Below, piece after piece: positions 48,447 through 64,000 of a DNA stretch of 64,000 bases. Every line of letters starts with the position of its first letter. Within the stretch, counting starts at the first letter, position 1. The position numbers and the translations under genes were made by a program. The notes under the pieces were generated by a model, which was given only the letters and a program-made list of their open reading frames with translations, did not search any database and had not been told where the DNA came from. Source of the stretch: Protoeuglena noctilucae (lineage: Eukaryota); the NCBI GenBank assembly GCA_958009085.1, contig OY253673.1, positions 558,001-622,000 of the forward strand. Reading direction: 5' to 3'.

Positions 48447-50167
48447 TTAAACCTCCGAGGCCTTCGGGACCCGCTGCGCCCGGTACAGCAGCAGGTAGGC
48501 CATGTGCCAGTCCCCCCCGCCCGCGAGCGCCAGAATCTCCTCCTCCTTGCGCACGGTCAGGTCGTCGTCGTCGTAGAGCACCCAGCTCCCGTCGGCCTGC
48601 TTGCACCACGCCACGTAGTGACCCGAGTCGGCAGAACGCCCCTTGTGTGTCAGGACCGCCGCCAGCTCGTACCGCCCCGTCATGCGCCCCTCCATCGCCA
48701 CCGCCTCGACGCTCAGCTCCCCCGGCGCCACCCCCGCCGCCGTCGTCGCGCCCTCCCCGCCGCGCCCCCCCTCCATGTCCACGTCTCCCTCCTTCGCCGC
48801 CCCCTCCGTCTTGGGCCGCTTCGCCTCCCCTTCCACCGCCTCCGCCGCCCCCGCCTCCCCCTTGGCCTCCGCCTTGCCCAGGTTCTTCCGGTGCACCCGC
48901 AGGTCCTCGACCTCCTTGAGCGCCGCGCGGGGACCGTCCAGCTCCTTCTGCACGGCCTCGGTGCAGACGTCGTAAAGGTCAAGCACCACGGGGAAGCCGA
49001 CCTTGCGGAGGATCTTGGCCTTCTGCTGCACGTCGACTTTGTAGAAGAACCGGACCATGTGCACCGTCAGCCAGGGCGGGAGGCGGCTGATGCGCGACTG
49101 GCCCTCCCAGTCGGCCGTGCGGCCCAGGCGCTCGCTCGCACGCTCCCGCTTCTCCTCCAACGCCACCTTGATGCCCTCCAGGAGGTGGTTGACCGACTGG
49201 TTGATGTTGCACTGCGAGGGGGCCGCACGGGTCGGGGACTCGCGCACTCCGAAGCGCCCACACACCGCTCCGTGTACGCGTTGCCACGCCCGGCACCGCT
49301 GCGTGCCCCAAGCCCCACCTTGAGCATGAGCTGGCTCGTGCGCTCCTCCCACGTCTCGCCCGTCCCCGCGCACGTCAGCTTGGCCTCGAACCCGATCTCA
49401 AACAGGCCCCTCAGCGGCGGGGCACCGTCTCCCATGTGTGCTGCGTCGACGCGCTGGCTGAGGACGTTCAGCAGGCCCGTCCAGCACTCCTCGGCGTCCT
49501 GCTGCATCGGCATGCCCTCCGCCCCGGTCTGCGCGAACTGCGGGAACATGTCCCGCAGAACAGCGAGGAAGGCCATGGGCGTCACGGGGGGTCCCTTGGA
49601 GCTCTCCAGCGCCTGGAAGAGGCCGCGCGTCGAGAGCGCCATGCGCTGCAGCGAGCCGGTGGCCCCTCCGTCCGTTAATCCCTGCAGCGCCTGGCGCAGC
49701 TCCGGCACGCGGAAGAGGCACTGCACGGTCGCGTTCATGTAGCACGTGTTGCCCAGGTTCGTCAGCCCCGCGCCGTACGCCCGCGTGTCCTGCGCCGCCT
49801 GCTCCGCCTCGGGGAGGTCCTCCACGAACTCGATACGCTGCTTGGGCGCCTCAATCGGCTTCTCCGCCGTGCCCATCATCATGAGCTTGGCGCCGTCCTT
49901 CAGACCCGTCGACGACCAGTCCGCGTCGTCGCGCAGGAGGCCGCCCTGCGGGCACGGCGAGATTCCGGCCATCGCAAGCAGCCTTCACGCGTGGTCCGCG
50001 AGCGCGATCCCCCAGCGAGGCCCACGCACCTTGACCATGATCTTCTGCCGCTCGGCCGGGACGCCCGTCAGGGACTCGAGCTGCGCCTTGAACAGGGCCG
50101 GCGGCTGCGCTGTGTCCACCTCGATGTCGAAGGTCTCCTTCTGCCATTTGACGGTGACCTTCAGCAT
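48447..50167 (-). CDS. UBP6: Proteasome-associated deubiquitinase UBP6/USP14
   Basis: UBL domain MLKVTVKWQKE..LTGVPAERQKIMVKGGLL; Cys box GLTNLGNTCYMNA; QQDAEEC; His box THKGRSADSGHYVAW..GGGDWHMAY. Confidence 0.96.
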
Positions 50168-50684
50168 GGTGGCGCGCTGCGGGGGGCGCCGGTGTTGAGG
50201 TCGCGTTTTTTTAAGATCCCGTCGACATAGGAAGACCCATGGCAGCGCGTCGTCTAGGGTTGGACGATACAAGTCTCAGCAACGCAGTATCCGCGGCCGC
50301 CATGCTCAGAATCGCACCTCGTGCCGCTTGTTCGGTGTCCCGACGCTCCTAACGCGCAGACGCAGCGATGATGCCCCGTCCTTCGTACACAGCAGTTGTA
50401 AGGAATGTGCGTTGCGGTGGTGGATGCGGTGGCTGCAATGGCAGCGAGCCCCGCTGGCGTCAGGACGAGTGCGCTGGCGCCAGGACCGTGGCCTCGTGTG
50501 AAACGTGCTTACAGCTCGCCGTCCTCCACAGGGCAACATACAGCGACACATTGGTGGCTCTGCACTTGCGCTGAGGAGCTGTGAGCCGGGTCTTTGCGGG
50601 CCTTGCTTTTCCCCGGGCCCTCGGCCACCACCCAGGAGTGCTGGCGAGCGGCTGTTGTCGCGAACTTCTTAGTCTCTGCTCGCC

Positions 50685-52644
50685 ATGGCGGAGAAGGTCA
50701 CTCGCACGGACGATGCGAGCACGAATGATGGGGTGGGTCGCGTGGCGCCAGCCGTGTGGGCGTCTGCTGCGGCTGCGGCTGTGAAATCACACTTCGTTGC
50801 GTGTATGCTTGGCTGGCGAGCTCACGCGCGGCAGGGACGGAGGGTGTGGGCTCACGAGCGGGCTACATGTCGCCGCAGGGGTCGGGGCGGTCCACACCCA
50901 CGATGCAGCCCAAGCGAACGCTGAGACAGAAGCTCATGGAAAAGCTTTCAGCGGCAACGGAGGCGTCCAATGTCATTCAGACCCAGGTGCGCGCCGCGTG
51001 AGGCTCAGCGGAAAGTCGAGAAACGTGTCCTTGCTTCTTGGCTCGCCGAGTCCCGAGCCGTCCCGTGCAGATGCCGTGTTTGGCACTTGACTCGTTGTTG
51101 TCGGTGCAAGACTTGCCAATAACGGCCGGCAGAGTTTGCGCAGCCCGCATGACCTGCAACGCGTCTCCCTTGCTCCCCGCCGCAGGTTTTGACCGTGGAC
51201 CGCCGGACGCTGGCCATTGAGATGCTCGTGAAGGGATGTCCGGGCGCGTACATCGACTTTTTCTTCCTGACGCACAAGGACCTCATCGAGTCGGAGCGCC
51301 CGTCGGACGCCGAGCTCATCGCGCGCGGGATCGACCCGGAGAGGCACGAGGTCCACAACAACATGTCTCCGGAGGCGATGCGTCTGCTGCGAGAGCACCT
51401 GGTGCAGGCGGAGGCCTGCCAGCGCGCCGGGGATGTGGAGGGCGTATACGCGGCGTGGGAGAAGGCCGCGCAGTACTTCGTCGGGACCCACGAGTACAAG
51501 ACGGGGGCGTATTTCTACTCCAAGTGTCTCCACGTCGCCGCCTCCACGGGCTGGGTCCACGGCGAGATGGACGCCAACCTCAACCTGGGCCTGGTGTCGG
51601 AGCAGCTGGGGCGCATGGAGGACGCCGTTTCGTACCACGAGCGGCACCTGCAGCTTGCGAGGCAGCACGGCACCCCGGGCGACCGCGAGCAAGCCGAGCG
51701 CAACCTGTTGGACCTGTATGCGCGGCAGGCGGACGCGGCACACGCACGCGGCGACTTTGCGGCCGAGGAGCACAGCCTGCGGCAGATGGCGCTCGCGGCG
51801 ACGCTGGCGGGCAACCGGTCGGCGGAGGGCGACGCCGCGCTGCGGATGGGCCAGAGCTTGATACGCAGCGGACAGCTCATCGAAGCCCTGGAGGTGCGTA
51901 AGGGATGACCCCTGCCCTGCCTGCCATGCAGCAATGACGGCACCGGGAGCTGTCTGTGGCCTTCGGACGATGAGAGCCGCGAGCGTATGCGTCCTCTCCC
52001 GCGCAGTCCCTTCGGCTGGTGCTGGACATCGCACGGGAGCTGGGCAGCGTGCGGCGCGAGGGTGCGGCCCACCACTTGATTGGGCGGTGCCTGGACCGCC
52101 TCAAGCGCACGGACGAGGCCATGGCAAGCCTGGATGAGTTCAGGTAAGAGGACGAGTGCTCGAGCTGTGGGTGTTGTGAAGGTGCCTCGCCACGGGCAGT
52201 TCGAGAGCTCGGCCCAGGGACACCCGAACGTGCCTCTCGCGCGTCGCTCGCAGGCGGCTTTCCTTCCTGGAGGCGGAGGGCCCGGGGGGCAAGATGGAGC
52301 CGGACTACGCGGGGGTGGCGGAGGCGTCGTGTGAGATGGGGCACATCCGCTTCCGTCGTGGGGAGTTCCGGGAAGCCGCGGTGCATTTCGCCGAGTTCTA
52401 CGCCATGGCTCGGCGGCTCGGGGACGTGCGGCGGTTGCAGGCGGCCAAGATCAACCTGGGGGCAGCGCGGGCGATGGCGATGCGAGGGGCGTTTCTGGGC
52501 AAAGTGCGCGAGGACCTCGGGGCGGTGCTGGCGTGGAAAGCGACGCGAGAGCCTTTCTGCGGAGAGGACGAGTTCGTGCCCCTCACGTCCGCGACCGAGG
52601 ATCGTACGCTGCGGGAGGCCATGTCGGTGGTTGACGACGCATGA
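50685..52644 (+). CDS. TPR protein, TTC29-like (axonemal dynein-associated)
   Basis: LAIEMLVKG..YIDFFFLTH region, TPR-like repeats (ANLNLGLVSEQLGRMEDAVSYHERHL), C-terminal AKINLGAAR..LAWK. Confidence 0.68.
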
Positions 52645-52818
52645 TGACCGTGCATCGTGACGTGATGTAGCGTGATGACTGCGCTTCAAGCGCTGTGCAA
52701 CATACGCGGAGCTGCACTGGCGCGCCGATGCGCGGCTGTAGAGAGGACGTCAGGGTGGTTACATGCGGTGTGAACCATGATGATCAGTGTCCGTAGTTGT
52801 GGCCTTTGCCCTCCAGCG

Positions 52819-55436
52819 TCACGGGAAGAGCTCCGCGAGCGTGCAACGCACGCCGCCGCCTCCGAGCTCCTCCAGCGTGTCGATGGGCGCGTGGTGGATG
52901 GCCGCCACGTGCCGCAGGATCGCCTCCCGCTGCTCTGGGGTGAAGGCGTTGTACGATCGCGTAGACATGGCCATCACGGGCAGGTTCCACCGGTTGCGGA
53001 CCTCAAGCACGTTGCCGCACTGCGGAAGCACGAAAGCAGCAGTCCGTGTTCGCGTCGCAAACGCGGTGCAATCATCATGGCCAGCAAAGGGCCCACCCAG
53101 ATGCTCCGTCACGGCCAGCTCCGGCAAATGACTCTCTGCAGAGTCGCTGCTCGCAACAGACTTCCACCCCCCCGCGTGGCTCACCAGTGCCTCCATCTGC
53201 GCGGCCGTGATGTCGACGACCTCGTGCCGTCGCGACAGGCTCGCGTGCAGAGCAGCGCGCTCCGCCGGGTCCGCCACGCTCTCCAGGCACACGACCGCCA
53301 CGCCCGTGCCCACGGCCATCATGACGTTCGTGTGGTAGACGGGGCTGCCCCGGTTGGTCGAGTGGAACGTCACGAGGTCGTACCCCATGCGGTCCGCCCA
53401 CTTGGCCGCCAGGGCAGCGTCCGAGCGCTCTGCGGGACATCCAGCGCCACACAGTGAGGCACTGCTACGAGGACGCATGTCGTGACGAACAAGACAGGGC
53501 CAAGCGCAGGGGCTCGCTGGCGCAACCAAGCAAGCGCCTGCCGCACCGGACAGGGCCACGTAGGCGACGCGCCCGGGGCGGTCCAGAACCAGAGACCCCG
53601 TCCCCTCGAAGTACCGCCCCTCGCGCTCCTCCTTCGACATGTCGACCACGTTGGCATACCGACCCAGGCCGCGCACGTACTGCACCAGGTCCGGGCGGCG
53701 CTCTCGGCGCCTGGGAGCACAGCACAAAGTGGCATGGTACGGAGGTGGGGTGGTGCGGTAGAGACTATCGAGGGTTGCACGCTCGTTAGCACCCGCGTGT
53801 GGATTGGACAAGGAGAGGCGTCGTTCTGGCACTGCTATAGGCACCTGTTCTCGACCTTCATGGGGTAGAAACACAATGTGCCCCCCGGCTGGCTTCCGAC
53901 GAGCTCTGCCGCCGGGTGCGTGGAGAACCAGTTGTTGGGGAAGCAGGCGTCGGGCGTGTCGTGCTCTGCAAGCCAAGCGCGGAGCGCAGCCTTTGATGTC
54001 CCAAGGATCGCATCGCCGGTCCCCATAGTATGCACTGTCCCCATACTTCTATGCACTGCGCCCGCCCTGACGCCCGCAATGGCTCGCTCACCGATCCCGT
54101 GCTCGAAGAGGTGGACCTTGACCCCCGCTCGGTCCCGCAGCTCAGACACGAGACCCGCGAACTCCTCCAGCACCCGCTGTGTCGGGGACGCGTCACCCCG
54201 GCGCATGAACTTGTTGTCCTGTGCCGCAGGAGGGCCCCCCGGGTGTCAGAAACCCACCCAGGCGCATCCGAGCGACAACAGCGGCACTGCTTCCGGGCAT
54301 AATCAGAGTGCAAGAGTTGTTCGGCAATGACAGGCTCACCTGCGCGGCCTGCTCGTTGAAGACGAAGGCGGTGGGCGAGACCATGAGGACCTCATTCGAG
54401 CTCTGGAGGGCCCGGGAGGGGAGCGGCTGGGCGGCTGCCGGGTCCGGGCAGACGTTGACGACGACGCCGGCCGCGTGGAGCGCATGGAGGACGTCGACGG
54501 ACGCCACGTCGAGGTGGAGCTGGCCGGTCGGGGAGCGCTGGTAGAGGTTGACCGTGACACGCCCGGCCGGGCGGCATATCCCGGCGGCCACGGCCACCTG
54601 ACCGGGGCCGATCTCGCGAAGGATCGAGGAGAGCTTCACGGGTGGCGCGCCGTCCGCGGTGAAGGGCTGCCGCACCACCGCGACCGTGGCGGTCCCTGCA
54701 CGCGACGCGAGGCAGGCGGGGATCGGGGGATCGGCGCGACCGGCGCGGCGCTGCGGACTTGCGCGGCGCTGCCTCCCGATGGAATGGCGCACGAACCTGC
54801 GACTTTATGGCCGTTGGGCACCTCCAGCGTCGCAGGGTCGAGGGTGACGGACGGTCCTGCGAGCGACGCGATGAAAGCCGCGTTTCCGCACCACTTGCAC
54901 CTTGAGATGGTTGGCCCTGAGGCAGCTGCGGAGAGCATCGCGGAAATGGTGCGGGATCCGACCCGGGAGGGCTCACCGTACTGCCGTTGCTTGGGGGCGT
55001 GGATGGCGATGGACTTGACCTTGCCGTGGACCAACAACACGCCCGTGTCCTTTGTCTCATTCTTCTCCGCAGTCGAGGAGAAGGCACCGGAGGATATGCG
55101 CGTCAGGGACGATGCAGCCGCCCCAATCCCGCTCCTTGCCGCCTCCCACGCGGAGGACAGCAAGGAGCGCCTCAAAACTTGTGCAGACATTTCAGCTGAA
55201 AGCAGCTGCGGTCCGTGAATGCAGGAAAATGGCTGTTGAAGCTCGCCCTGTTGAATGCGACGTGCAACTGGCGCCTTGCTGTAGGTCCTTCTGGGCAGTG
55301 CCCGATATCGCGCCCCGCATCTCCCACCCGTGGCATCATGCGTGCAAGTCGATGGCGCTACCACTGCCCGCAGCGCGTGCGCTCGGCTCAGCAAACTCCA
55401 GGGGCGCGCTGGCGCACGAAGCGTGTTTAACCGCAT
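52819..55436 (-). CDS. Amidinotransferase/pentein-superfamily hydrolase (bacterial CtlX/FN0238-like) with an extra N-terminal region; start uncertain
   Basis: VLMVSPTAFVFNEQAAQDNKFM, TPDACFPNNWFSTH, YPMK..RRRERR, EGTGSLVLD, YHTNVMM, CGNVLE, GGGGVRCTLAELF. Confidence 0.85.
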
Positions 55437-55538
55437 GAGCGCGCCTTCCTAGCCTCACGTGGCTTAGCGCGGAGCTTGCGCGGAATCGGCAGGCAGAGAT
55501 GGCCGCCCTGCTGGCTCTCAGGGTATCGATTCCTCGGC

Positions 55539-55550
55539 GTTAGGGTTAGG
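55539..55550. promoter_or_regulatory. Telomere-like (TTAGGG)x2 / telo-box-like motif in a putative bidirectional promoter
   Basis: GTTAGGGTTAGG; related AACCCTAG/CTAGGGTT motifs occur in the divergent spacers at ~45088 and ~50254. Confidence 0.35.
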
Positions 55551-55737
55551 CGCACATACGCGTTTGGGGCCCGCATGGTGCGTCCCTGGGCCTTGCACCG
55601 TGCAGTTCTCCGGGTTTGGCGCTAGGCGGGGAGTTTCAGCTGGCGCTGGTCTCGGCCACGGGGAACCTTGAAGGGTCTGAAGTCGTCCCATGAAGTACCT
55701 CCATGGAGCTCCACTCCTATGGTGGTGCTCCACGGTA

Positions 55738-56199
55738 TGACTCCAAGCCCTTCGAGGTGACGACCCCTCGCACCATGGCCATCTCGTTCGCCCATTTGGG
55801 CCTGCCAGTCCGTCCTAAGGAGCTTCAGCGGGCCAAGTACCTTCGCCTCCCAGTGCAGGTGCCAATGTTTTTGCTTTTATGGAAGTGTCGGCGAGGCCAT
55901 ATTGATGCACGGCTATTGCAAGGATAAGAAGGGCGCCATGTGCACGTGCATGTACACGTGCGTGCGCGCGCCCTTCTCCCCCTTGCAATCTCCGTGCACC
56001 ACCATTGCCTCGCCAGGCACCTCCATGAAGCAGAAAGTTGCCATCTGCATAGGGAGGTGGCGGACAAGGGAAGTACTCGGCCTGCTTCAGCTCGTTGGAA
56101 CGGACTGGCAGGCCCAGGCCCAAACAAGATGGCCATGGGGCGAGGGGGGTCGTGATGACGGAGGAGGCCACCAAAGAGCCTCAGAGGGTATGCGGGTCA
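55738..56199 (+). ncRNA. Long imperfect stem-loop 1 (candidate pri-miRNA/hairpin RNA)
   Basis: Arms 55760-55936 and 55968-56153 are reverse-complementary with mismatches and bulges; basal helices 55748-55757/56179-56188 and 55738-55743/56194-56199. Confidence 0.6.
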
Positions 56200-56503
56200 G
56201 TGCAGCGGCCAAGCCGTGTCACAATGCGTTTGATCCGTGGGCACCCTGCACACTCCCCCGTCACCGGAGGGGTGCCTGCACTCTCACGTATCCGCCACTA
56301 CCCTCCCCGCACCAACCGCAACCCCTCGCCCATTCACCGCAGCCCCACAAGGAAATTGGGTATCCCCGCCCCGCCGTCCGCTTCCGTCGCCTCCGCCCCC
56401 GTCCCCACCGCGGCCCCCGCTGCCCCATCCCCCATCACTGTGTCCTCCTCCCCTACCCATCATTCACCTGCACCCTCCCTCATTCGCAAGAACCGAACGT
56501 CCT

Positions 56504-56771
56504 TGCCACACTTACCATGCCTCCAGGTCCCCCCGAAATGTTCGTCAACGTGGCAGTCGTATAGCTGCGCTGCGCATATAACGACACATGTGCGCCATGA
56601 CTTTGTAGGTGGGACACAGCGCCTTCGGCACGCCACTGTTGCGTTCCTCCTGCCGCTGTGCCCCTCCCATGAGGCCATGGTGCGTGTGTGCCATTTTATG
56701 CGCCGCGTAGCTTTACGACTGCCACGTTGACGAGCATTGGGGGGGGCCTGGAGGCGGCGGTGGGTGTGGCA
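56504..56771 (+). ncRNA. Pre-miRNA-like stem-loop 2 (core of a larger fold-back, ~56210-57156)
   Basis: 25-bp helix 56537-56561/56714-56738 with one G:U; flanking helices GCCACACTTACC/GGTGGGTGTGGC and GCCTCCAGGTCCCCCC/GGGGGGCCTGGAGGC; wobbles are G:U on the + strand. Confidence 0.7.
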
Positions 56772-56898
56772 GCGATGCTCCTTTGCTGAAAGAGGAGGTG
56801 GGTGCTAGGCTTCTCGAGGAGCTTGATATTGGCGTGCTGGGGCAGAATGGGGAGGGTGAGGAGGGTGGGGGGAGGGTGGGGAGGGTGTTGTGTGCTGT

Positions 56899-57039
56899 GT
56901 AGTGGGGCAGGCTAGGGAGTGTGAGGAGGGTGGGGTCAGTGAGGGGAGGGTAGCAGGGCAGGCTAGGGAGGGGGAAGAGGGTGGGGTGAGGGGGGGAGGG
57001 TAGTGGGGCAGGCTAGGGAGGGAGGGGAGGGTGGGGAGG
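56899..57039 (+). repeat. About three diverged copies of a ~50-bp G-rich unit (core GGGCAGGCTAGGGAG)
   Basis: Units start at 56899, 56950 and 57000. Confidence 0.75.
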
Positions 57040-57288
57040 CGCCAATGCGATGTGCCTTGCGCCTGGCTCGCTGCGGCAGGGCTAAGACGCGCGTCTGCGT
57101 GGCGGCGCGGCGCCGTCATCTGTGGCGATGCCGGGAGTGTCCACGGTTTCGGCTTGCTCGTTGAAAGTCATTCTATGACCTTGAAGGGCCCTGACGGTCC
57201 ACGCTCAATGTGCGCCCTGTCACAAGGCGAGGTCAACCCCGCCAGTTCGAGTTTAGAGTAAACATAGAACATATTAGTTTCTACAGAG

Positions 57289-58440
57289 TTACACTTTACA
57301 CGTCAGCGCCGACAGCAGACGGGCGAGGTGGGCCCCGTCGACCCACGAGGCGACGCGAGGCAGAGAGCTCTCTCCCAGACGGCGGTCTAGCTGCATGTCG
57401 TGGCCCAACGCCCCCTCGTCCAGCTCCTCGCAGCCAATCTCGCGCAGCTGCGAGTAGAGCGCGGCCAGGGCCGGGGCCGGCTCTCCCGAGGGCGCATGGG
57501 ACTGACCGGCGCGGCCTGGGTGGCGCCTGGCCAAGGCGATGAGCCCCTTGCCGCCCGCGAGGCAAGGGCACACGTCGTTGGACCCGTCGCCGACGTAGAC
57601 GATGCGGTGGAGAGGCCCGGGGAGGCCCTGGACCACCTCCCGCAGGATGTCCGCCTTGCATTGATTTCGGGGACACCTCGGGCAGCCGTGGAGAGGGCGA
57701 TCAGTCCGCGACTCCCACGGCACCTCCGGGCCTGCGTCCGCCATTGTGCCCGCGTCCGCCACGCTCGGCTCGCAGCCGTCCCTCGCCATGTCCGCCAGTC
57801 GCCCGCAGAAGGGGCGGACGCGCAGGGCGGCTGGTGCGCCTCCTGCTCCTCCCACAAACTCGGCAGGGTTTGTCAAGACCCTGTCGCCGAATGCCTTGGA
57901 CAGCCCTGGGCACAAGAGGAGGTCTCCTGATGCTGGGCAAGGGGCAAGAACTGACCAAGTCTGCCTAAGGACCCAGGAATGCACCACAGCCAGCATTAGG
58001 TCCCTGCAGCATGCTCGCCGTGTTGCTCCAACACATGGCGGATGAAGAGGGAGTTGGCGTCCGAGGCGAGGGCGAAGACGACACCGGCGTCGGATGCATC
58101 CCGAATCGCTCTGGCCACGTCGCGGTGCAGGGGCAGCGCCCGGCACGCACGCTCCACGTTAGCGGGGCCCTTCCCGCGCTCGCCCGTGGCGACACGGAAG
58201 CAAAGGTCCATGAGGACCGTCCACTGGAGGTGCCTGTTCTCCTGCGGCCGAGGTCGCTCGTGGCAGCTCGGCTCAGCTCGTGGCAGCTCGGCTGGTGGCA
58301 GGCAAACGGGCGAGGCAGCGCACCTGGTACACATCGGCCACCCCGAGCTCCTGCACCAGCCGCGTATCGCTGTTGTCGTCGATCAGCGACCAGTCAAAGT
58401 CAAACATCACAAGCAAGGGCGCTCTTGCGGGGTGCGACAT
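57289..58440 (-). CDS. HAD-superfamily PHOSPHO1/2-like phosphatase
   Basis: MFDFDWSLIDDNSD, SDANSLFI, TNPA, CPRCPRNQCK, IVYVGDGSNDVCP. Confidence 0.9.
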
Positions 58441-58861
58441 CGGATTGAGGCGTTGGCGCCGCCGCCAACGTCCCTTTAAATGCCTGTCGCGCCGAACAAA
58501 CATGCATATCCCCAGCGTCATGACAGCCTCGGCGGCTTCGTCGTGCTGCCGAGCAAGCGCAAAATGCACGACTCTAAGAGGCCGTCGGCGCGCATGACTT
58601 CGCATGCCAGTGGGAACGGTGTCGCGCGCTTAAAAGGAGCTCTGGGGCCGCGTCGACGCCGTTGATGTTTGCACGGATCCACTCTCCATCATCTCACTGC
58701 GCCACAGTCACGCCCCACGCTTCGAGGAGCTGCAACGGAGGAAGGGATGCTCGCGCAGGTGCGCGGAACGGCTGCAAGCGCATCGCTCGATTGCGTTGCA
58801 TTCTTTCGCATCCTGTCGCCCGGCCTAGCCCCATGCCCGTGCGCGCCGTAGTGCTCCCGCA

Positions 58862-59791
58862 ATGGCTGGCCGCAAAGTGCGCCACGGTGCCCCCGATGTG
58901 CGCCTTCGTCGTGGCGCAATCGCCTCCTCAGCCCAATCCGTGCGTTTAGCTCCTAGATATCCGATGTGGCCGTGCCGAGAGCTCCCGTGCGAGCGGCCTC
59001 GAGGGACCCTCGCCCGATGTCGCGGATGGCCGGGGACCCGCCACCCGAGCTGCACCATCAAGCTCTTTGTAGCCGTTTTTAGACCCCGGCGTGCCCCCGC
59101 GCCGCATTCCGACCCCCGCACTGCCGCCCCGGCCCGCTGCGATCCTTTGGTCCCGAATCACTGGGCCGTGCGCCGCGCCCCGCCTTCTGCAGCGGTGGTC
59201 GCGGCCGTTCACACCCCGATGCGGCCGCTAAGGCCCCGACCGCGCCGGCCCGCTGCCCGTGAAGAGCTCCCCGGACACGCCTGCGCAGGTGCGCCTGTCG
59301 GGCCTTGCGGCTCCCTGCGCTACGCCGGCGCGCCGGCCTCGGGCGGTCGCGGTGCGCGCCGAGGAGAAGGATGCCAACACCACGACGTCGGAGGGCGGGC
59401 CCAAGTTCTCCTTTGAGATGAACAAGCTGGCGGGTGCGGCTTGGCACGAGCACCGGCTGCACCTGCCGCCTGCGAAGCGCCCGCGGCCGCTGAGTCACCC
59501 CGCGCCGCGTGCCTCGACGCAGGGGTGGGCTACCAGAGCGAGGACTCGGCGGGCCAGCAGAACATCTTCGCCGTGGAGCCCAAGCAGTACGTGGCGCAGG
59601 ACAACACGGTGGGGGGCGGCTCGCTGGTGGGCGTGGGGTCTCTGATCGCGCTCGCGCTGCTGGGGGGTGGCCTGACGGCGCTGATCAACACGGACGGGGG
59701 CGCGGCGGAGGATATGTCGGGGTACAAGACGGCCACCGAGTACGCCCAGGCGTTCCGGGCAGCGGGCTCCGCGCCCTCCACGCAGATCTGA
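58862..59791 (+). CDS. Small single-pass thylakoid protein, MPH1-like; first exon uncertain
   Basis: Transit-peptide end RAVAVRA, motif GVGYQSEDSAGQQNIFAVEPKQYVA, one TM helix, then DMSGYKTATEYAQAF. Confidence 0.6.
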
Positions 59792-60106
59792 CGGGCGCCT
59801 CTGTCACAGAGACGTTCCGTTCGTGTTTCGTTGTCCCCGTCTCGCCGGCTGCTCTGCGCCTAGCCGCGCTCCCTCCCCAGCTTGCATGATGTCAGGCTCA
59901 CTAGGGCAGCTCCCTGCCCCCAGCGCTACCCTGCGCCCTCGCCGCATTGAATGGTCATGCCCTCGTCCATACGCGTGGCATAGACAGCAAGGCATGGCCT
60001 CCAGATGGTATCTGTTCTATGCCTCAAGATGCCGCAATGCAAGACGCCGCAATGCAGGGGCCAACGGCCGTTAGCCCTACTCGGCATTCTCTGGCACGTC
60101 CCCTCA

Positions 60107-63100
60107 CTAGCGCGCCCCTTCCAATCCCGACACGGTGTCCGTCAGGGCTTGGTGGAAGGCCGTGGCGTGGCCCACGCGTGTCTCCCACGACGCTGCCAGC
60201 ATGCCGTGGATGCGCACATGGGGCAGCCCAGACGCAGAGCACATCGGGACCCGCGACACCTGCGCGGCAGCAGACGAGGGCGGGAGTCGGCTGCAGAAAC
60301 CTGCCTTGCTAAGCCGCGTGGAAGTGGGAGTGCAATGTGGTTCGGTCACATACCAAGTGCCAGGCAGCCGCATCGCTCCGTGGGACGCCCACTTTGGCTC
60401 ACCTTGGCCCCGCAGAGGTGACAGAACTGAGAAGGCCGGCCTCCCTGGAGAGTCCCCACGATGCGTACCATGGTCCCTAACGCAGGCGCGTGCTTGACGA
60501 CGTCTTTTTCGTCGATCACGAGCCCGGGGGGCGGCGGCGCGACCGTGAAGGGCCGTGCACGGAAAGCCGACACCCCATCCACCGTGCGCGCGCTCCAGGG
60601 CCGGGGCTGCCGTACCCCGTGGCCTCCGTGCGCCCCGTCGCCGTTTGCCAGAGGCCCTCCGTCCCCCGCTGCGTTGGCGGCGGCCTTGGACCCCGGCGCG
60701 TGCGCCGACTGCGGACGCTCCGCCCGCCGTCCCTTGCCAGCCACCTGCGGCGTCCACACCCCCGTGGTGCTGTCCACAGCCGCCGGCCTCGTCGTCGGCG
60801 CCAGGGCGTCCTCGGACCGCGACAGCGCCAGGATGCTCGACCGACCCGCTGTGCCGGCCGGCGTGACGGGGTGCGTGGGGGCCATCGAAGCCGACGTCCG
60901 ACGTGCGCGAGGGCGACTTGGGGCGGCCGCGGTAGGGCACGTCCTTGCTCAGGGCCCTGCGGAGCATCTCCTCCGCCTCCGCCTCACGCACCGACCAGTT
61001 GCCCAGCGCGGGGTGCCGCAGGGGCTGCGCCGACAGGGGCAGGCCGTCGGGCCCGGGGCGCGCACCCTCCACGACCGAGGCGCCAGACGCGCGCGCGTGG
61101 CCCAGCGCGCTCGGGGGCCGCGAGCGCGAGCGGGGCGACACCCTTCCGATCGCAGGGACCTCGAAGTCGGCACCCGCCAGGCGGCCGAACAGCGGCGAGA
61201 TGGGCTCCCGCTGGGGGCTCGGCGCGCGATGGGCGCCGGCTGTTGCGCCGCGCGACTTGGTCACGGGGGCGCTGCCGGGCCGCGCGTCCCGTCGTCGGCC
61301 AGGGCGGTGCGCCAGGGCCGCAGGCGCGGCCGCCGCATCGGCAGCGAAGGGACTGGGGCTGCCCAGGATGTCCTGAGCCCCCCACTGTGCCGCCAGCCCC
61401 GGCGTCTCTGCCCAGGCCATCGGCACCGTGTCGCCTGGGGTGCCCAGGACGGCGCTGTTGCGCACCGTGGCGGCGGCGCGGTCGCTGGCGCCGCTGCCGT
61501 GGGGCGCGAGCCCGCGGGGCCGCGGGGGGCTGCTGGAGACGGGCGTGGCGACCCTCCGGAGCCAGCTGGCGTCGTCCTGGGTCGCGGTCATGTGCGCGGG
61601 CATGGATGGTCCCTGGGCCGCCCATGCGTCCGCCACAGCCTTGCGGGTCATCGCCGACGACATGCGCGCGAGCTCGAGCTGCCGCTGCGCCGTGCGCCGG
61701 ATGTTGCGCAAACGCCGCTCGCCCTCGTCCGCCCCGGGGAGCTTCTCAGCGTACGGAGACACCCCCGAGGGCTTAGAGCCTCGTGGACCCTTGGCAGGAG
61801 GTGACACGAGCACCTCGTAGCCGGCGGGAACGGGGGCGGCGCCCGACGGCGGCCCATGCTCAATGGCGAAGGGGCGTGAGTCGGGGCGCCATGCGTCGGG
61901 CATGGGGCGCGATGCCGAGGGGGGCCGGGCGTTGCTGCGAGCGGAGGCAGGGCGCCTTGGAGCCCCGCCGGACGCCGGCGCGGGTCCGCGCGGGGCCTGG
62001 GGCCCCTTGGCGCTCCTGGGCCTGGGGCGGCGGGTGGGCGACGGGCGCTTCTCCCGCGGCGACGCCTCGTCCGGGCCCGCAACGCCCGGTGCATAGTCCC
62101 AGTGGCCGTCGACCGGGGCCCGGGGCGGCGAAGCACGGCTCGCGCTGCCGTCCGCGGCGGGCCACCCCGCCTGCCCCAAGCCTGGCCCGTCCGCCGGTCG
62201 GGGCGGGGTGCGCCACTGCGGCATTGGGCCGTCCCGCGCCTCCGAAGGGGGCGCGCCGGGACTCCCAGCGTCCGCTGCGGTCCCGCCCCGTCCCTCCTGG
62301 GCCTTGAGCGCCTCGCAGACCTTGACGTACCGCCTCATCTCGTCCTCCAGATGGCTCCGTGCCTCGAGGATGGCCGCCAGCCTTGCCTCTAACTGCTCGA
62401 GAGGCGACAGGCTCGACGCGGGGTCGATGAGGCTGTCCAGGTCCGCGGCAGTGCCCCCGGAGCCCTGGGCGGGCGCGGGGGTCGCCGCCGCATCCTCGGG
62501 GTCGTGTGTTGGGTCGACCCCCGCAGCTGGGGCAGGTGTCTCGGCTCGGGCCCGCTCCCGCGCGGCGCAGTGAACGACGCGGTGTCGGAAGAGCCCGGCG
62601 TCGAGGCAGGCGTGGGAGCAGAAGAGGGACTCCCCGCAGTCGGGACAAAGGCACGGGAGAGGGAAGCCGGTGGCGCCGCACTCCCGGCAGGCGCCCTTGG
62701 CCGCTCGCTGCTTCTCCATGCGGGCCTTGACGGGGCCCACGCATCTCCGCGCCTGCCGCCCGCGCTCGAACGCCTGTATCTTAATTGCGGCCGCCACCTG
62801 CGCGTCGGCACGCAGCCGCATCTCCATCTCCCGCATCGCCTCGCGGGCCTGCAAGCCCCGCTCGAGCACCTCCGAAGCCAGTCCCGCGTTCTGCTGCGAA
62901 GCAAGAGGCGACCGACAAGCGCTCAGCGGCTCAGCGCCACCCTCCATGCCTGTCGTCTGCACCCAGCCCACACAACTGCCCTACATCCTGCGCGTATCAG
63001 CCAACAGCACCCCACGCGCGCTTGCAATCAAGCTTTGTTTAGACGAGACCCTCACCTGCCCCTCCAGCGACTGCCGGAGCTGGTCGATGCGATGCACCTC

Positions 63101-64000
63101 CTTGCGCACCCGGTCCGCCCGCTTAGCGATCTCCGCGGACAGCTTGCGGGCCGCGTAGCCCCTGACGTGCTTCTGGATCAGCACGGCGGCCGCCTGGCGC
63201 CGCCGGCTCTCGATGCGCAGCGACTGCACCCTGCGCCGCGCCAGCATCCCCCGGGCGTGCGACTGGATGCGCGTGGCCGCCACGACCCGCCTCTTCGTCT
63301 CTGCGACGCGCTGCCCCGCCCGGCGACGCGCCAGGGCGCCGTGCGCGTGCGACTGGATGGACGTCGCCGCCCTCTCGTCCCACTCGCTCGCCAGCATCTC
63401 TGCCCGTCGTCGGCCCATCACGCCCCGCGCCAGGCCTTGCAACAGCTCCACTGCCCACTCGTCCTCGACATCGCCTGCGTCGTCCGGGACCCCTCTCTCC
63501 ACCTCACCCATGCATGAAACCACCTCGAGCTCTGCCGCCCCCGCACCCAGGCCGGCGCTCGTGCCAGACACCTCCGCGCCCGCACCAGGCAATGCAGCTG
63601 CGTCCGAGCTGCCCCCATCCACCCCCGCCGTCGCAAGCGCCACACCCCCGGCGCCCGCTGCATCCTCTGCACCCCATTGCCCAGGCCCTTCCCTGTCCTC
63701 GAAATCGTCGCCGTAGTCATCTTCATATGCCACGCCCTCCGCTACCGTGGCAGCCACCTCCAGGGCCCCCGTCTCTCGGCCACTGCCACTGCCGCGACTC
63801 CCCGGCGCGTCCTCCTCCCCCCGGCTCTCCTCTTCGCGCGCCAGGGCCTCAACCAGCTCCTCTGTGAGGCGGTGCACGTAAGCGGACGAAGGCGCAGACG
63901 ACAGGCCCCCGTCGCTCAGGCCCTCCAAATCAGCCGCCACCGCCTCCACCAGCGCGTGCACGGCGCGGTGCACCGCGACTGCCGATGGGGCAGAGGACAG
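60107..64000 (-). CDS. Large IQ-motif protein with MYND-like zinc finger and disordered tail; 5' part outside the window, 3' end uncertain
   Basis: IQ motifs IQSHAHGALARR, IQSHARGMLARR, IQKHVRGYAARK, IQAFERGRQARR; CRECG..CPDCGESLFCSHACL..HRVVHC. Confidence 0.7.

What the first reader, a model, noticed from the sequence alone, without database searches (positions are those of the whole stretch)
56504..56771. Hairpin 2 has a near-perfect 25-bp core and strand-specific G:U pairs
AATGTTCGTCAACGTGGCAGTCGTA (56537-56561) pairs with TACGACTGCCACGTTGACGAGCATT (56714-56738) with a single U:G. Neighbouring helices (GCCACACTTACC/GGTGGGTGTGGC, AGCTGCGC/GCGTAGCT, CACAGCG/CGCTGTG) deviate mainly by G:U on +, which would be A:C mismatches on -. 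That asymmetry suggests selection on RNA structure rather than neutral decay of a DNA inverted repeat. Candidate mature species beginning with U: UACGACUGCCACGUUGACGAG (56714-56734) or UUCGUCAACGUGGCAGUCGUA (56541-56561).
Basis: partly seen in the sequence, partly recalled or inferred. Interest (0 to 1): 0.8.

Follow-up and report, generated by a model that had tools for sequence, protein, structure and literature searches.

The report
Long hairpin locus in marine alga
A 268-base inverted repeat between two genes of a marine green alga folds into an exceptionally stable hairpin and seems to be transcribed, so it may feed a small-RNA pathway, but the claimed strand-specific sign of selection is no stronger than chance.

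Summary
The hairpin is real. All ten quoted strings sit at the stated coordinates. The + strand folds to -195.3 kcal/mol (z -15.9, 0 of 200 shuffles as good). It is the most stable of 576 300-nt windows scanned.

The G:U asymmetry exists but is not beyond chance. There are 12 G:U against 5 A:C positions (binomial p=0.14). In 250 neutral-decay simulations, 39% gave a strand difference of at least 12 kcal/mol. The - strand folds to -183.3 kcal/mol (z -17.1).

The host is a chlorophyte with no close sampled relative, so covariation could not be tested.

One marine metatranscriptome has identical contigs at 56267-56471 and 56598-56839. About 2 kb of neighbouring introns and spacer have none. The region is therefore probably transcribed, strand unknown, at a depth like the upstream phosphatase-like gene.

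The locus is single-copy, has no Rfam match and shows no coding signal.

Best reading (0.4): a transcribed long inverted repeat that makes Dicer-substrate dsRNA, as Chlamydomonas hairpin precursors do. It may lie in a 3' UTR on the - strand. No small-RNA reads or Dicer/Argonaute genes could be examined.

Main rival (0.35): a neutral palindrome.

The parts
56504..56771 (.). Hairpin 2: a 268-nt imperfect inverted repeat. The transcribed strand is not resolved.
   Evidence: RNA MFE is -195.3 on + (z -15.9) and -183.3 on - (z -17.1). The DNA fold is -101.2, z -13.3. Of 132 aligned arm positions, 102 are Watson-Crick.
56537..56561 (.). 5' half of the 25-bp core helix.
   Evidence: It pairs with 56714-56738 with one U:G at 56541-56734. 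The longest perfect run is 20 bp, permutation p=0.11.
56714..56738 (.). 3' half of the 25-bp core helix.
55760..56150 (.). Hairpin 1: a neighbouring, unrelated 391-nt inverted repeat.
   Evidence: MFE is -263.9 on + and -264.3 on -, with z about -19. It has 11 G:U against 10 A:C. It shares no similarity with hairpin 2. No RNA contig covers it in X9.
56295..56503 (+). C-rich flank (112 C of 209 nt) that can pair with the G-rich flank beyond hairpin 2.
   Evidence: Inverted matches I4 and I6-I8. The 766-nt fold extends the stem. Composition.
56772..57040 (+). G-rich flank (155 G of 269 nt) with a 50-nt tandem repeat at 56899-57036 and G-quadruplex-type motifs.
56267..56471 (.). Stretch covered by an identical 205-nt contig of metatranscriptome run X9.
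   Evidence: record 22, depth 4.3, 0 differences.
56598..56839 (.). Stretch covered by an identical 242-nt contig of metatranscriptome run X9. It spans the loop, the 3' arm and 68 nt beyond.
   Evidence: record 23, depth 2.8, 0 differences.
57289..58158 (-). Last exons of the upstream neighbour, a phosphatase-like gene. Its stop codon is 518 nt from hairpin 2.
   Evidence: Pfam Put_Phosphatase E 2.2e-11. Spliced RNA contigs at depth 4.9-5.2.
54636..55448 (-). 5' part of the downstream neighbour, a spliced and well-expressed gene with no known family.
   Evidence: A 3211-nt spliced RNA contig at depth 33 ends at 55220. X12 contigs reach 55410. No Pfam family.

Best explanation
Hairpin 2 is a single-copy, long imperfect inverted repeat in the 1.8-kb spacer between two minus-strand genes of a marine chlorophyte. 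The region is transcribed at a low level. The transcript folds, on either strand, into a roughly 110-130-bp imperfect double-stranded stem whose basal half is best preserved.

Inferred and not shown: such a stem is a substrate for a Dicer-like RNase III. It would yield hairpin-derived small RNAs (miRNA-like or siRNA), as the long hairpin precursors of Chlamydomonas do. The strand is open. One possibility is an independent + strand non-coding transcript. The other is the - strand as an extended 3' UTR of the phosphatase-like gene, where cleavage would also lower that mRNA in cis.
For: - Fold stability is far beyond shuffles on both strands, and this is the top-ranked of 576 windows.
- Metatranscriptome X9 holds identical contigs at 56267-56471 and 56598-56839, covering 447 of 573 nt. 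It has no cover on about 2 kb of adjacent spacer and on the four neighbouring introns, which argues against uniform DNA carry-over.
- Depth there (2.8-4.3) is like the phosphatase-like gene (4.9-5.2) and unlike the downstream gene (33).
- The basal half of the stem has fewer non-Watson-Crick positions than the apical half: 9 of 66 against 21 of 66, Fisher p=0.02.
- There is no coding signal. No Pfam family was found in 3 ORFs across the hairpins, and the - strand ORF has no protein homologue.
- There is no other copy in the window. In organism A's DNA contigs only one contig covers 55438-56643.
- The host groups with chlorophytes. Its FtsH fragment is 80% identical to Volvox africanus and 77% to Monoraphidium.
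- In Chlamydomonas, DCL3 cuts hairpins in introns, UTRs and non-coding RNAs, some in 3' UTRs and some without detectable small RNAs (PMC4817775, passages read).
Against: - No small-RNA reads were available.
- No genome is held, so Dicer-like and Argonaute genes could not be sought. Some marine green algae (Ostreococcus) lack both (PMC4014436, passage read).
- The second metatranscriptome laid (X12) covers the neighbouring genes but not the hairpin.
- The RNA evidence is two low-depth contigs from one sample, without strand information.
- Strand asymmetry and the core run are within neutral expectation.
- No relative was found for a covariation test.
- No complementary target beyond chance exists in the 64-kb window: 1 hit, against 0, 7, 0, 0 and 1 in shuffles.
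Confidence: 0.4

Rival explanations
1. Neutral relic. The hairpin is an old inverted duplication of spacer DNA that is decaying without function. Any RNA over it is read-through or a 3' UTR that merely contains it.
For: - The arm mismatch spectrum looks neutral: 17 transition-type and 13 transversion-type positions, with G:U against A:C at 12 against 5 (p=0.14). Hairpin 1 has 11 against 10.
- The strand energy difference is reproduced by 39% of neutral simulations.
- The core run is not significant.
- No conservation data exist.
- RNA depth is low.
Against: - Two unrelated long hairpins lie side by side, and no others of this strength occur in 57.8 kb.
- About 23% arm divergence has accumulated, yet the arms stay colinear with a better-kept basal half (Fisher p=0.02).
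- RNA cover is found here but not on the adjacent spacer.
Confidence: 0.35
2. This is a canonical + strand miRNA precursor under selection for RNA structure, with a mature species starting with U at 56714-56734 or 56541-56561.
For: - The + fold is 12 kcal/mol better than the - fold and has 13 against 6 G:U pairs.
- All 5 transition-type mismatches of the basal half are G:U on + (p=0.06).
- The stem is 268 nt with a duplex region carrying one G:U.
Against: - The asymmetry is not significant.
- The z-score is stronger on the - strand.
- The two proposed species pair end to end with no 2-nt offset.
- RNA depth matches the minus-strand neighbour gene.
- No small-RNA data exist.
- Neither candidate sequence is in the searchable literature: 0 papers.
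Confidence: 0.12
3. Relic of a foldback or MITE-type transposable element.
For: The whole element is an inverted repeat. It sits beside a second one in a spacer with low-complexity repeats.
Against: - There is no second copy in the window.
- Only one contig of organism A's DNA run covers hairpin 1 and the 5' arm of hairpin 2 at 80% likeness or more.
- No target-site duplication is visible at either hairpin's ends (read by eye).
- No transposase-like ORF is present.
Confidence: 0.08
4. DNA-level element: a cruciform or G-quadruplex-flanked palindrome acting on termination, replication or recombination between the two tandem genes.
For: - The DNA fold is -101.2 kcal/mol, z -13.3.
- It is flanked by C-rich and G-rich tracts with G-quadruplex-type motifs.
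- It lies about 0.5 kb downstream of a gene's stop codon.
Against: - With 23% arm mismatch and 132-bp arms, extrusion is unlikely (inference).
- There is no precedent from any call.
Confidence: 0.05

Closest known systems
Long-hairpin miRNA/siRNA precursors of Chlamydomonas reinhardtii (DCL3-dependent), including hairpins in 3' UTRs and non-coding RNAs (PMC4817775, passages read; PMC5511227, passages read)
   Same: - The host is a green alga.
- The locus is single-copy.
- The stem is long and imperfect, much longer than animal pre-miRNAs.
- It sits beside or within a gene's untranslated region.
- It is not conserved outside the species, as reported for Chlamydomonas miRNAs.
   Different: No small RNAs, no Dicer-like or Argonaute genes and no strand have been shown here. 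The host is a marine chlorophyte whose FtsH fragment is only about 80% identical to that of Volvocales.
Young plant MIR genes or proto-miRNAs born from inverted duplications (mentioned in PMC5511227, introduction passage read; original papers recalled only)
   Same: The fold-back covers the whole length, and the arms are still recognisably duplicates. Expression is low.
   Different: No parent or target gene was found. The arms match nothing else in the window and carry no protein signal.
Endogenous hairpin-RNA (hpRNA) siRNA loci of animals and plants (recalled)
   Same: A long inverted repeat would give more than 100 bp of dsRNA.
   Different: Those loci are defined by heterogeneous siRNA reads, which are not available here.
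Foldback or MITE transposable elements
   Same: A palindromic, non-coding element a few hundred bases long.
   Different: It is single-copy and no target-site duplication was seen.

Membership tests
miRNA precursor (criteria as in PMC5511227: hairpin, no more than 2 predominant 5' processing sites, no more than 4 mismatches of the main read to the other arm) | The transcript region folds into a hairpin. | tested here: met
   It is met on both strands.
miRNA precursor | The main small-RNA read has no more than 4 mismatches to the opposite arm. | tested here: inconclusive
   The candidate 25-bp core has one G:U, but no reads define a main species.
miRNA precursor | Small-RNA reads with precise, dominant 5' ends. 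| not testable with these tools
   No small-RNA run was on offer. Contigs built from 31-letter words cannot hold 21-nt reads.
miRNA precursor | The locus is transcribed. | tested here: inconclusive
   One of the 2 metatranscriptomes laid has identical contigs over 447 of 573 nt, at depth 2.8-4.3, with the strand unknown.
miRNA precursor | The host has Dicer-like and Argonaute proteins. | not testable with these tools
   No genome is held. Neither family appears among the 143 window ORFs scanned, which says little for 64 kb.
Structured RNA under strand-specific selection | An excess of G:U over A:C mismatches, or a stability excess on one strand beyond neutral expectation. | tested here: not met
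   12 against 5 gives p=0.14. 39% of 250 simulations reach the observed difference. The genomic strand-difference sd is 18 kcal/mol.
Structured RNA under selection | Compensatory changes in relatives. | not testable with these tools
   No close relative was found. The best neighbour-gene match was 33-49% identical. The core 20-mer is absent from the viral and prokaryote collections.
Any Rfam family | A covariance-model match. | tested here: not met
   Scanning 50000-64000 at E up to 1 gave only a chance mir-182 hit at 51072-51127 (24.3 bits against a gathering score of 71). Nothing fell on the hairpins.
MITE or foldback transposon | Multiple dispersed copies. | tested here: not met
   None in the window. 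A single contig covers 55438-56643 in organism A's DNA run. Short look-alikes occur only in the low-complexity flanks.
MITE or foldback transposon | Target-site duplication at the ends. | tested here: not met
   The flanks were read by eye and no direct repeat is seen at either hairpin.

The most novel reading that the evidence does not exclude
It is cut by a Dicer-like enzyme, so it both tunes that mRNA in cis and releases trans-acting small RNAs. That would be the first small-RNA locus described in this poorly sampled marine chlorophyte lineage, and a second green-algal case of Drosha-like mRNA control by a Dicer-like protein.
Probability: 0.15. Interest if true: 0.5.

Novelty: new member of a known kind. 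Interest (0 to 1): 0.3.

Why it matters
If small RNAs are made here, the locus would show that a marine chlorophyte with no close sequenced relative runs a hairpin-based RNA-silencing pathway like that of Chlamydomonas. It would also give a concrete, easily assayed precursor with a 268-nt stem. If they are not made, it is an ordinary decaying palindrome. The result also has a methodological use: a G:U against A:C count of this size (12 against 5) cannot separate RNA selection from neutral decay.

Tried and rejected
- Covariation in relatives. It returned 54 loci, none close (best 49% over 55 aa, and 33% at E 4e-14). I checked the five longest for inverted repeats. Four had none, and L003 had one unrelated 77-nt pair 5.6 kb from the match. 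L002 is 47-49% GC, so it is another organism.
- Core 20-mer in viral contigs and genome contigs: 0 matches each.
- Protein search with the - strand ORF across hairpin 2: no candidate.
- Rfam: nothing on the hairpins.
- Target search inside the window: 1 site with 3 or fewer mismatches, against 0, 7, 0, 0 and 1 in shuffles.
- Literature search for the two candidate 21-mers: 0 papers.
- Earlier findings of the scan: none for this genome. One unrelated Naegleria note was returned.
- Run X10 is labelled as another organism and its kind is unknown. It has one identical 151-nt contig at 56614-56764 and nothing else of the 4-kb stretch apart from low-complexity matches and one partial 37-nt match. 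This is probably a few duplicate reads, and I draw nothing from it.
- X12 has no cover of the hairpin. With contigs, that is no evidence of absence.
- TGTAA as a poly(A) signal. There are only 10 in 64 kb, two of them inside the last codons of the phosphatase-like gene. It was not useful for finding transcript ends.
- Organism identity beyond 'chlorophyte' was not pursued.
- The sliding-fold scan stopped at its time limit after 576 windows (positions 1-57,800). The last 6 kb were not scanned.

Full report
**Observation.** The region 56504-56771 is a 268-nt imperfect inverted repeat.
- In the + strand minimum-free-energy fold the stem has 113 pairs: 66 G-C, 34 A-U and 13 G-U.
- From the base upward it is arranged as helices of 13, 17, 25, 8, 7 and 15 bp and several shorter ones.
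- The 25-bp helix 56537-56561/56714-56738 has one U:G, at 56541-56734.
- The fold energy is -195.3 kcal/mol against -108.3 +/- 5.5 for 200 dinucleotide shuffles (z -15.9, none as good).
- In a sliding scan of 576 300-nt windows (positions 1-57,800; the script hit its time limit before the last 6 kb), the window 56501-56800 ranks first on both strands. It gives -205.9 and -188.6 against a mean of -126.5, sd 18.7, and it has the lowest G+C of the top 15 windows.
- The hairpin is therefore real and exceptional.

**The asymmetry claim.** The - strand also folds into the same hairpin: -183.3 kcal/mol, z -17.1, 0 of 200 shuffles as good, 105 pairs with 6 G-U.
- Aligning the arms gives 132 paired positions: 102 Watson-Crick, 12 G:U on +, 5 A:C on + (these are the G:U of the - strand) and 13 transversion-type.
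- Under strand-symmetric mutation a transition in either arm gives G:U or A:C with equal chance. 12 of 17 has p=0.14 two-sided and 0.07 one-sided.
- I rebuilt a perfect palindrome from the 5' arm and added 17 transitions and 13 transversions at random. The + minus - energy difference had sd 14.0 kcal/mol over 250 trials. 39% of trials reached the observed 12 kcal/mol in absolute value, and 21% in the observed direction.
- Ordinary 300-nt windows of this DNA differ between strands with sd 18.2 kcal/mol.
- The neighbouring hairpin 1 (55760-56150; -263.9 on + and -264.3 on -) has 11 G:U against 10 A:C. Pooled, that is 23 of 38, p=0.26.
- The 20-bp perfect run (permutation p=0.11) and the 25-bp run counting G:U (p=0.31) are also within expectation for the overall mismatch rate.
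- One mild non-random feature remains. The basal half of the stem has 9 of 66 non-Watson-Crick positions and the apical half has 21 of 66 (Fisher p=0.02). All 5 transition-type mismatches of the basal half are G:U on + (p=0.06).
- In sum, the asymmetry exists but cannot carry the inference of selection on a + strand RNA.
- The two proposed mature species are exactly co-extensive in the duplex. They therefore cannot be the two strands of one RNase III product, which would be offset by 2 nt (recalled knowledge).

**Context.** The window is about 66% G+C and no genome is held for it.
- ORF scans show an intron-rich photosynthetic eukaryote. Pfam matches include FtsH, a triose-phosphate translocator, GcpE split over at least 5 ORFs, and SAS-6. 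I scanned 143 of the 152 ORFs of 180 aa or more, and 6 of the other 9. Three were not scanned.
- The FtsH fragment's best named relatives are Volvox africanus (80%), Monoraphidium neglectum (77%) and Ostreococcus tauri (71%). Apart from a 100% self-like entry, the next best is 83%. The host is thus a chlorophyte with no close relative in the protein collection.
- The DNA occurs in marine metagenomes and in runs of a cultured 'organism A'. One contig of 110 kb from that organism is identical over the 4 kb laid.
- The hairpins lie in the spacer between two minus-strand genes. Upstream is a phosphatase-like gene (Pfam Put_Phosphatase, E 2e-11) whose ORF stops at 57289, followed by an A+T-rich island. 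Downstream is a gene of no known family whose RNA contigs reach 55410.
- Hairpin 2 is flanked by a C-rich tract (56295-56503) and a G-rich tract (56772-57040). The G-rich tract includes a 50-nt tandem repeat. The two tracts can pair and lengthen the stem: a 766-nt fold gives -457.3 on + and -406.5 on -, with most of that difference also seen in the shuffles.

**Expression.** Only contigs could be laid, so neither strand nor ends can be read.
- Metatranscriptome X9 comes from the sample that may be the source of this DNA. It has identical contigs at 56267-56471 (depth 4.3) and 56598-56839 (depth 2.8).
- It also has spliced contigs of both neighbours, at depth 33 for the downstream gene and 4.9-5.2 for the phosphatase-like gene.
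- It shows no cover on 55221-56266 (which includes hairpin 1), on 56840-57301, or on the four neighbouring introns.
- Uniform DNA carry-over would not give 447 of 573 nt covered here and none of about 2 kb of silent DNA next to it. I therefore take the region as probably transcribed.
- The depth matches the phosphatase-like gene. This fits a long 3' UTR on the - strand at least as well as an independent + strand RNA.
- A second metatranscriptome (X12) covers the neighbours, partly unspliced, but not the hairpin.

**What it is not.**
- No Rfam family matches.
- No Pfam family was found in the three ORFs that cross the hairpins, and the - strand ORF has no protein relative.
- There is no second copy in the window. 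In organism A's DNA run only the one long contig covers 55438-56643 at 80% likeness or more.
- No target-site duplication is visible.
- The window holds no complementary 21-mer site beyond chance.

**Relatives.** The single metagenome scan, seeded with the neighbouring gene, found no orthologous locus. The core 20-mer is absent from the viral and prokaryote collections. Covariation could therefore not be tested. This is not surprising if the locus is like Chlamydomonas miRNA genes, which are not conserved even in Volvox (PMC5511227, passages read).

**Most likely mechanism.** My best reading, at 0.4, is a transcribed long inverted repeat whose RNA forms an imperfect double-stranded stem of over 100 bp and is cut by a Dicer-like enzyme.
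- In Chlamydomonas, DCL3 makes miRNAs and siRNAs from such hairpins in introns, UTRs and non-coding RNAs. It also lowers mRNAs that carry hairpins in their 3' UTR, some without detectable small RNAs (PMC4817775, passages read).
- Shown here: the fold, single-copy status, absence of coding signal, and probable transcription.
- Inferred: Dicer-like processing, small-RNA output, and any cis or trans effect.
- Not testable here: whether the alga has Dicer-like and Argonaute genes. Ostreococcus lacks both (PMC4014436, passage read). Reports for Coccomyxa differ between that paper and PMC3446292.
- The main rival, at 0.35, is a neutral, decaying inverted duplication that is transcribed only incidentally. 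Every sequence statistic I could compute is compatible with it.

**Verdict.** The structural observation is correct and the locus is a reasonable candidate hairpin-RNA gene of a known kind. The specific argument for strand-specific selection fails its tests. The case rests on data that are still missing: small-RNA reads, the transcribed strand, and the RNAi gene content of the host.

Noticed in passing
window 55760-56150: Hairpin 1 is an unrelated 391-nt inverted repeat 350 nt upstream of hairpin 2. It is equally stable on both strands (-263.9 and -264.3 kcal/mol) and has 11 G:U against 10 A:C. No RNA contig covers it in X9. Its loop holds a short CATGTACACGTG tandem repeat.
   Followed up: partly
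window 56295-56503 and 56772-57040: A C-rich tract and a G-rich tract flank hairpin 2 in mirror fashion. The G-rich side has a 50-nt tandem repeat (2.7 copies, 56899-57036) and G-quadruplex-type motifs at 56839-56885 and 56928-57036. The C-rich side has one such motif on the - strand at 56396-56433.
   Followed up: partly
window 57905-58018 (minus strand): The RNA contig joint that skips 113 nt reads as a GC..AG intron once shifted by one base, which the joint's ambiguity allows. The other three introns seen are GT..AG.
   Followed up: partly
window 57231-57310: One of only four A+T-rich islands in the window (50-nt stretches down to 28% G+C). It lies right after the phosphatase-like gene's stop codon, and two TGTAA motifs sit within the gene's last codons.
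   Followed up: no
window 56614-56764: Run X10 is labelled as a different organism and its kind is unknown. It holds one identical 151-nt contig over the loop and 3' arm of hairpin 2, and otherwise only low-complexity matches and one partial 37-nt match on the 4 kb laid.
   Followed up: no
window 54583-54806 and 57970-58190: Metatranscriptome X12 has contigs that run through introns which X9 splices out. This indicates unspliced RNA or DNA carry-over in that run.
   Followed up: no
window 51072-51127: A weak Rfam mir-182 match (24.3 bits against a gathering score of 71, E 0.14). It is most likely chance.
   Followed up: no
L003 6785-7189: An unrelated metagenome contig fetched through the phosphatase-like query carries a 77-nt, 97% complementary inverted repeat with a 251-nt spacer.
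   Followed up: no
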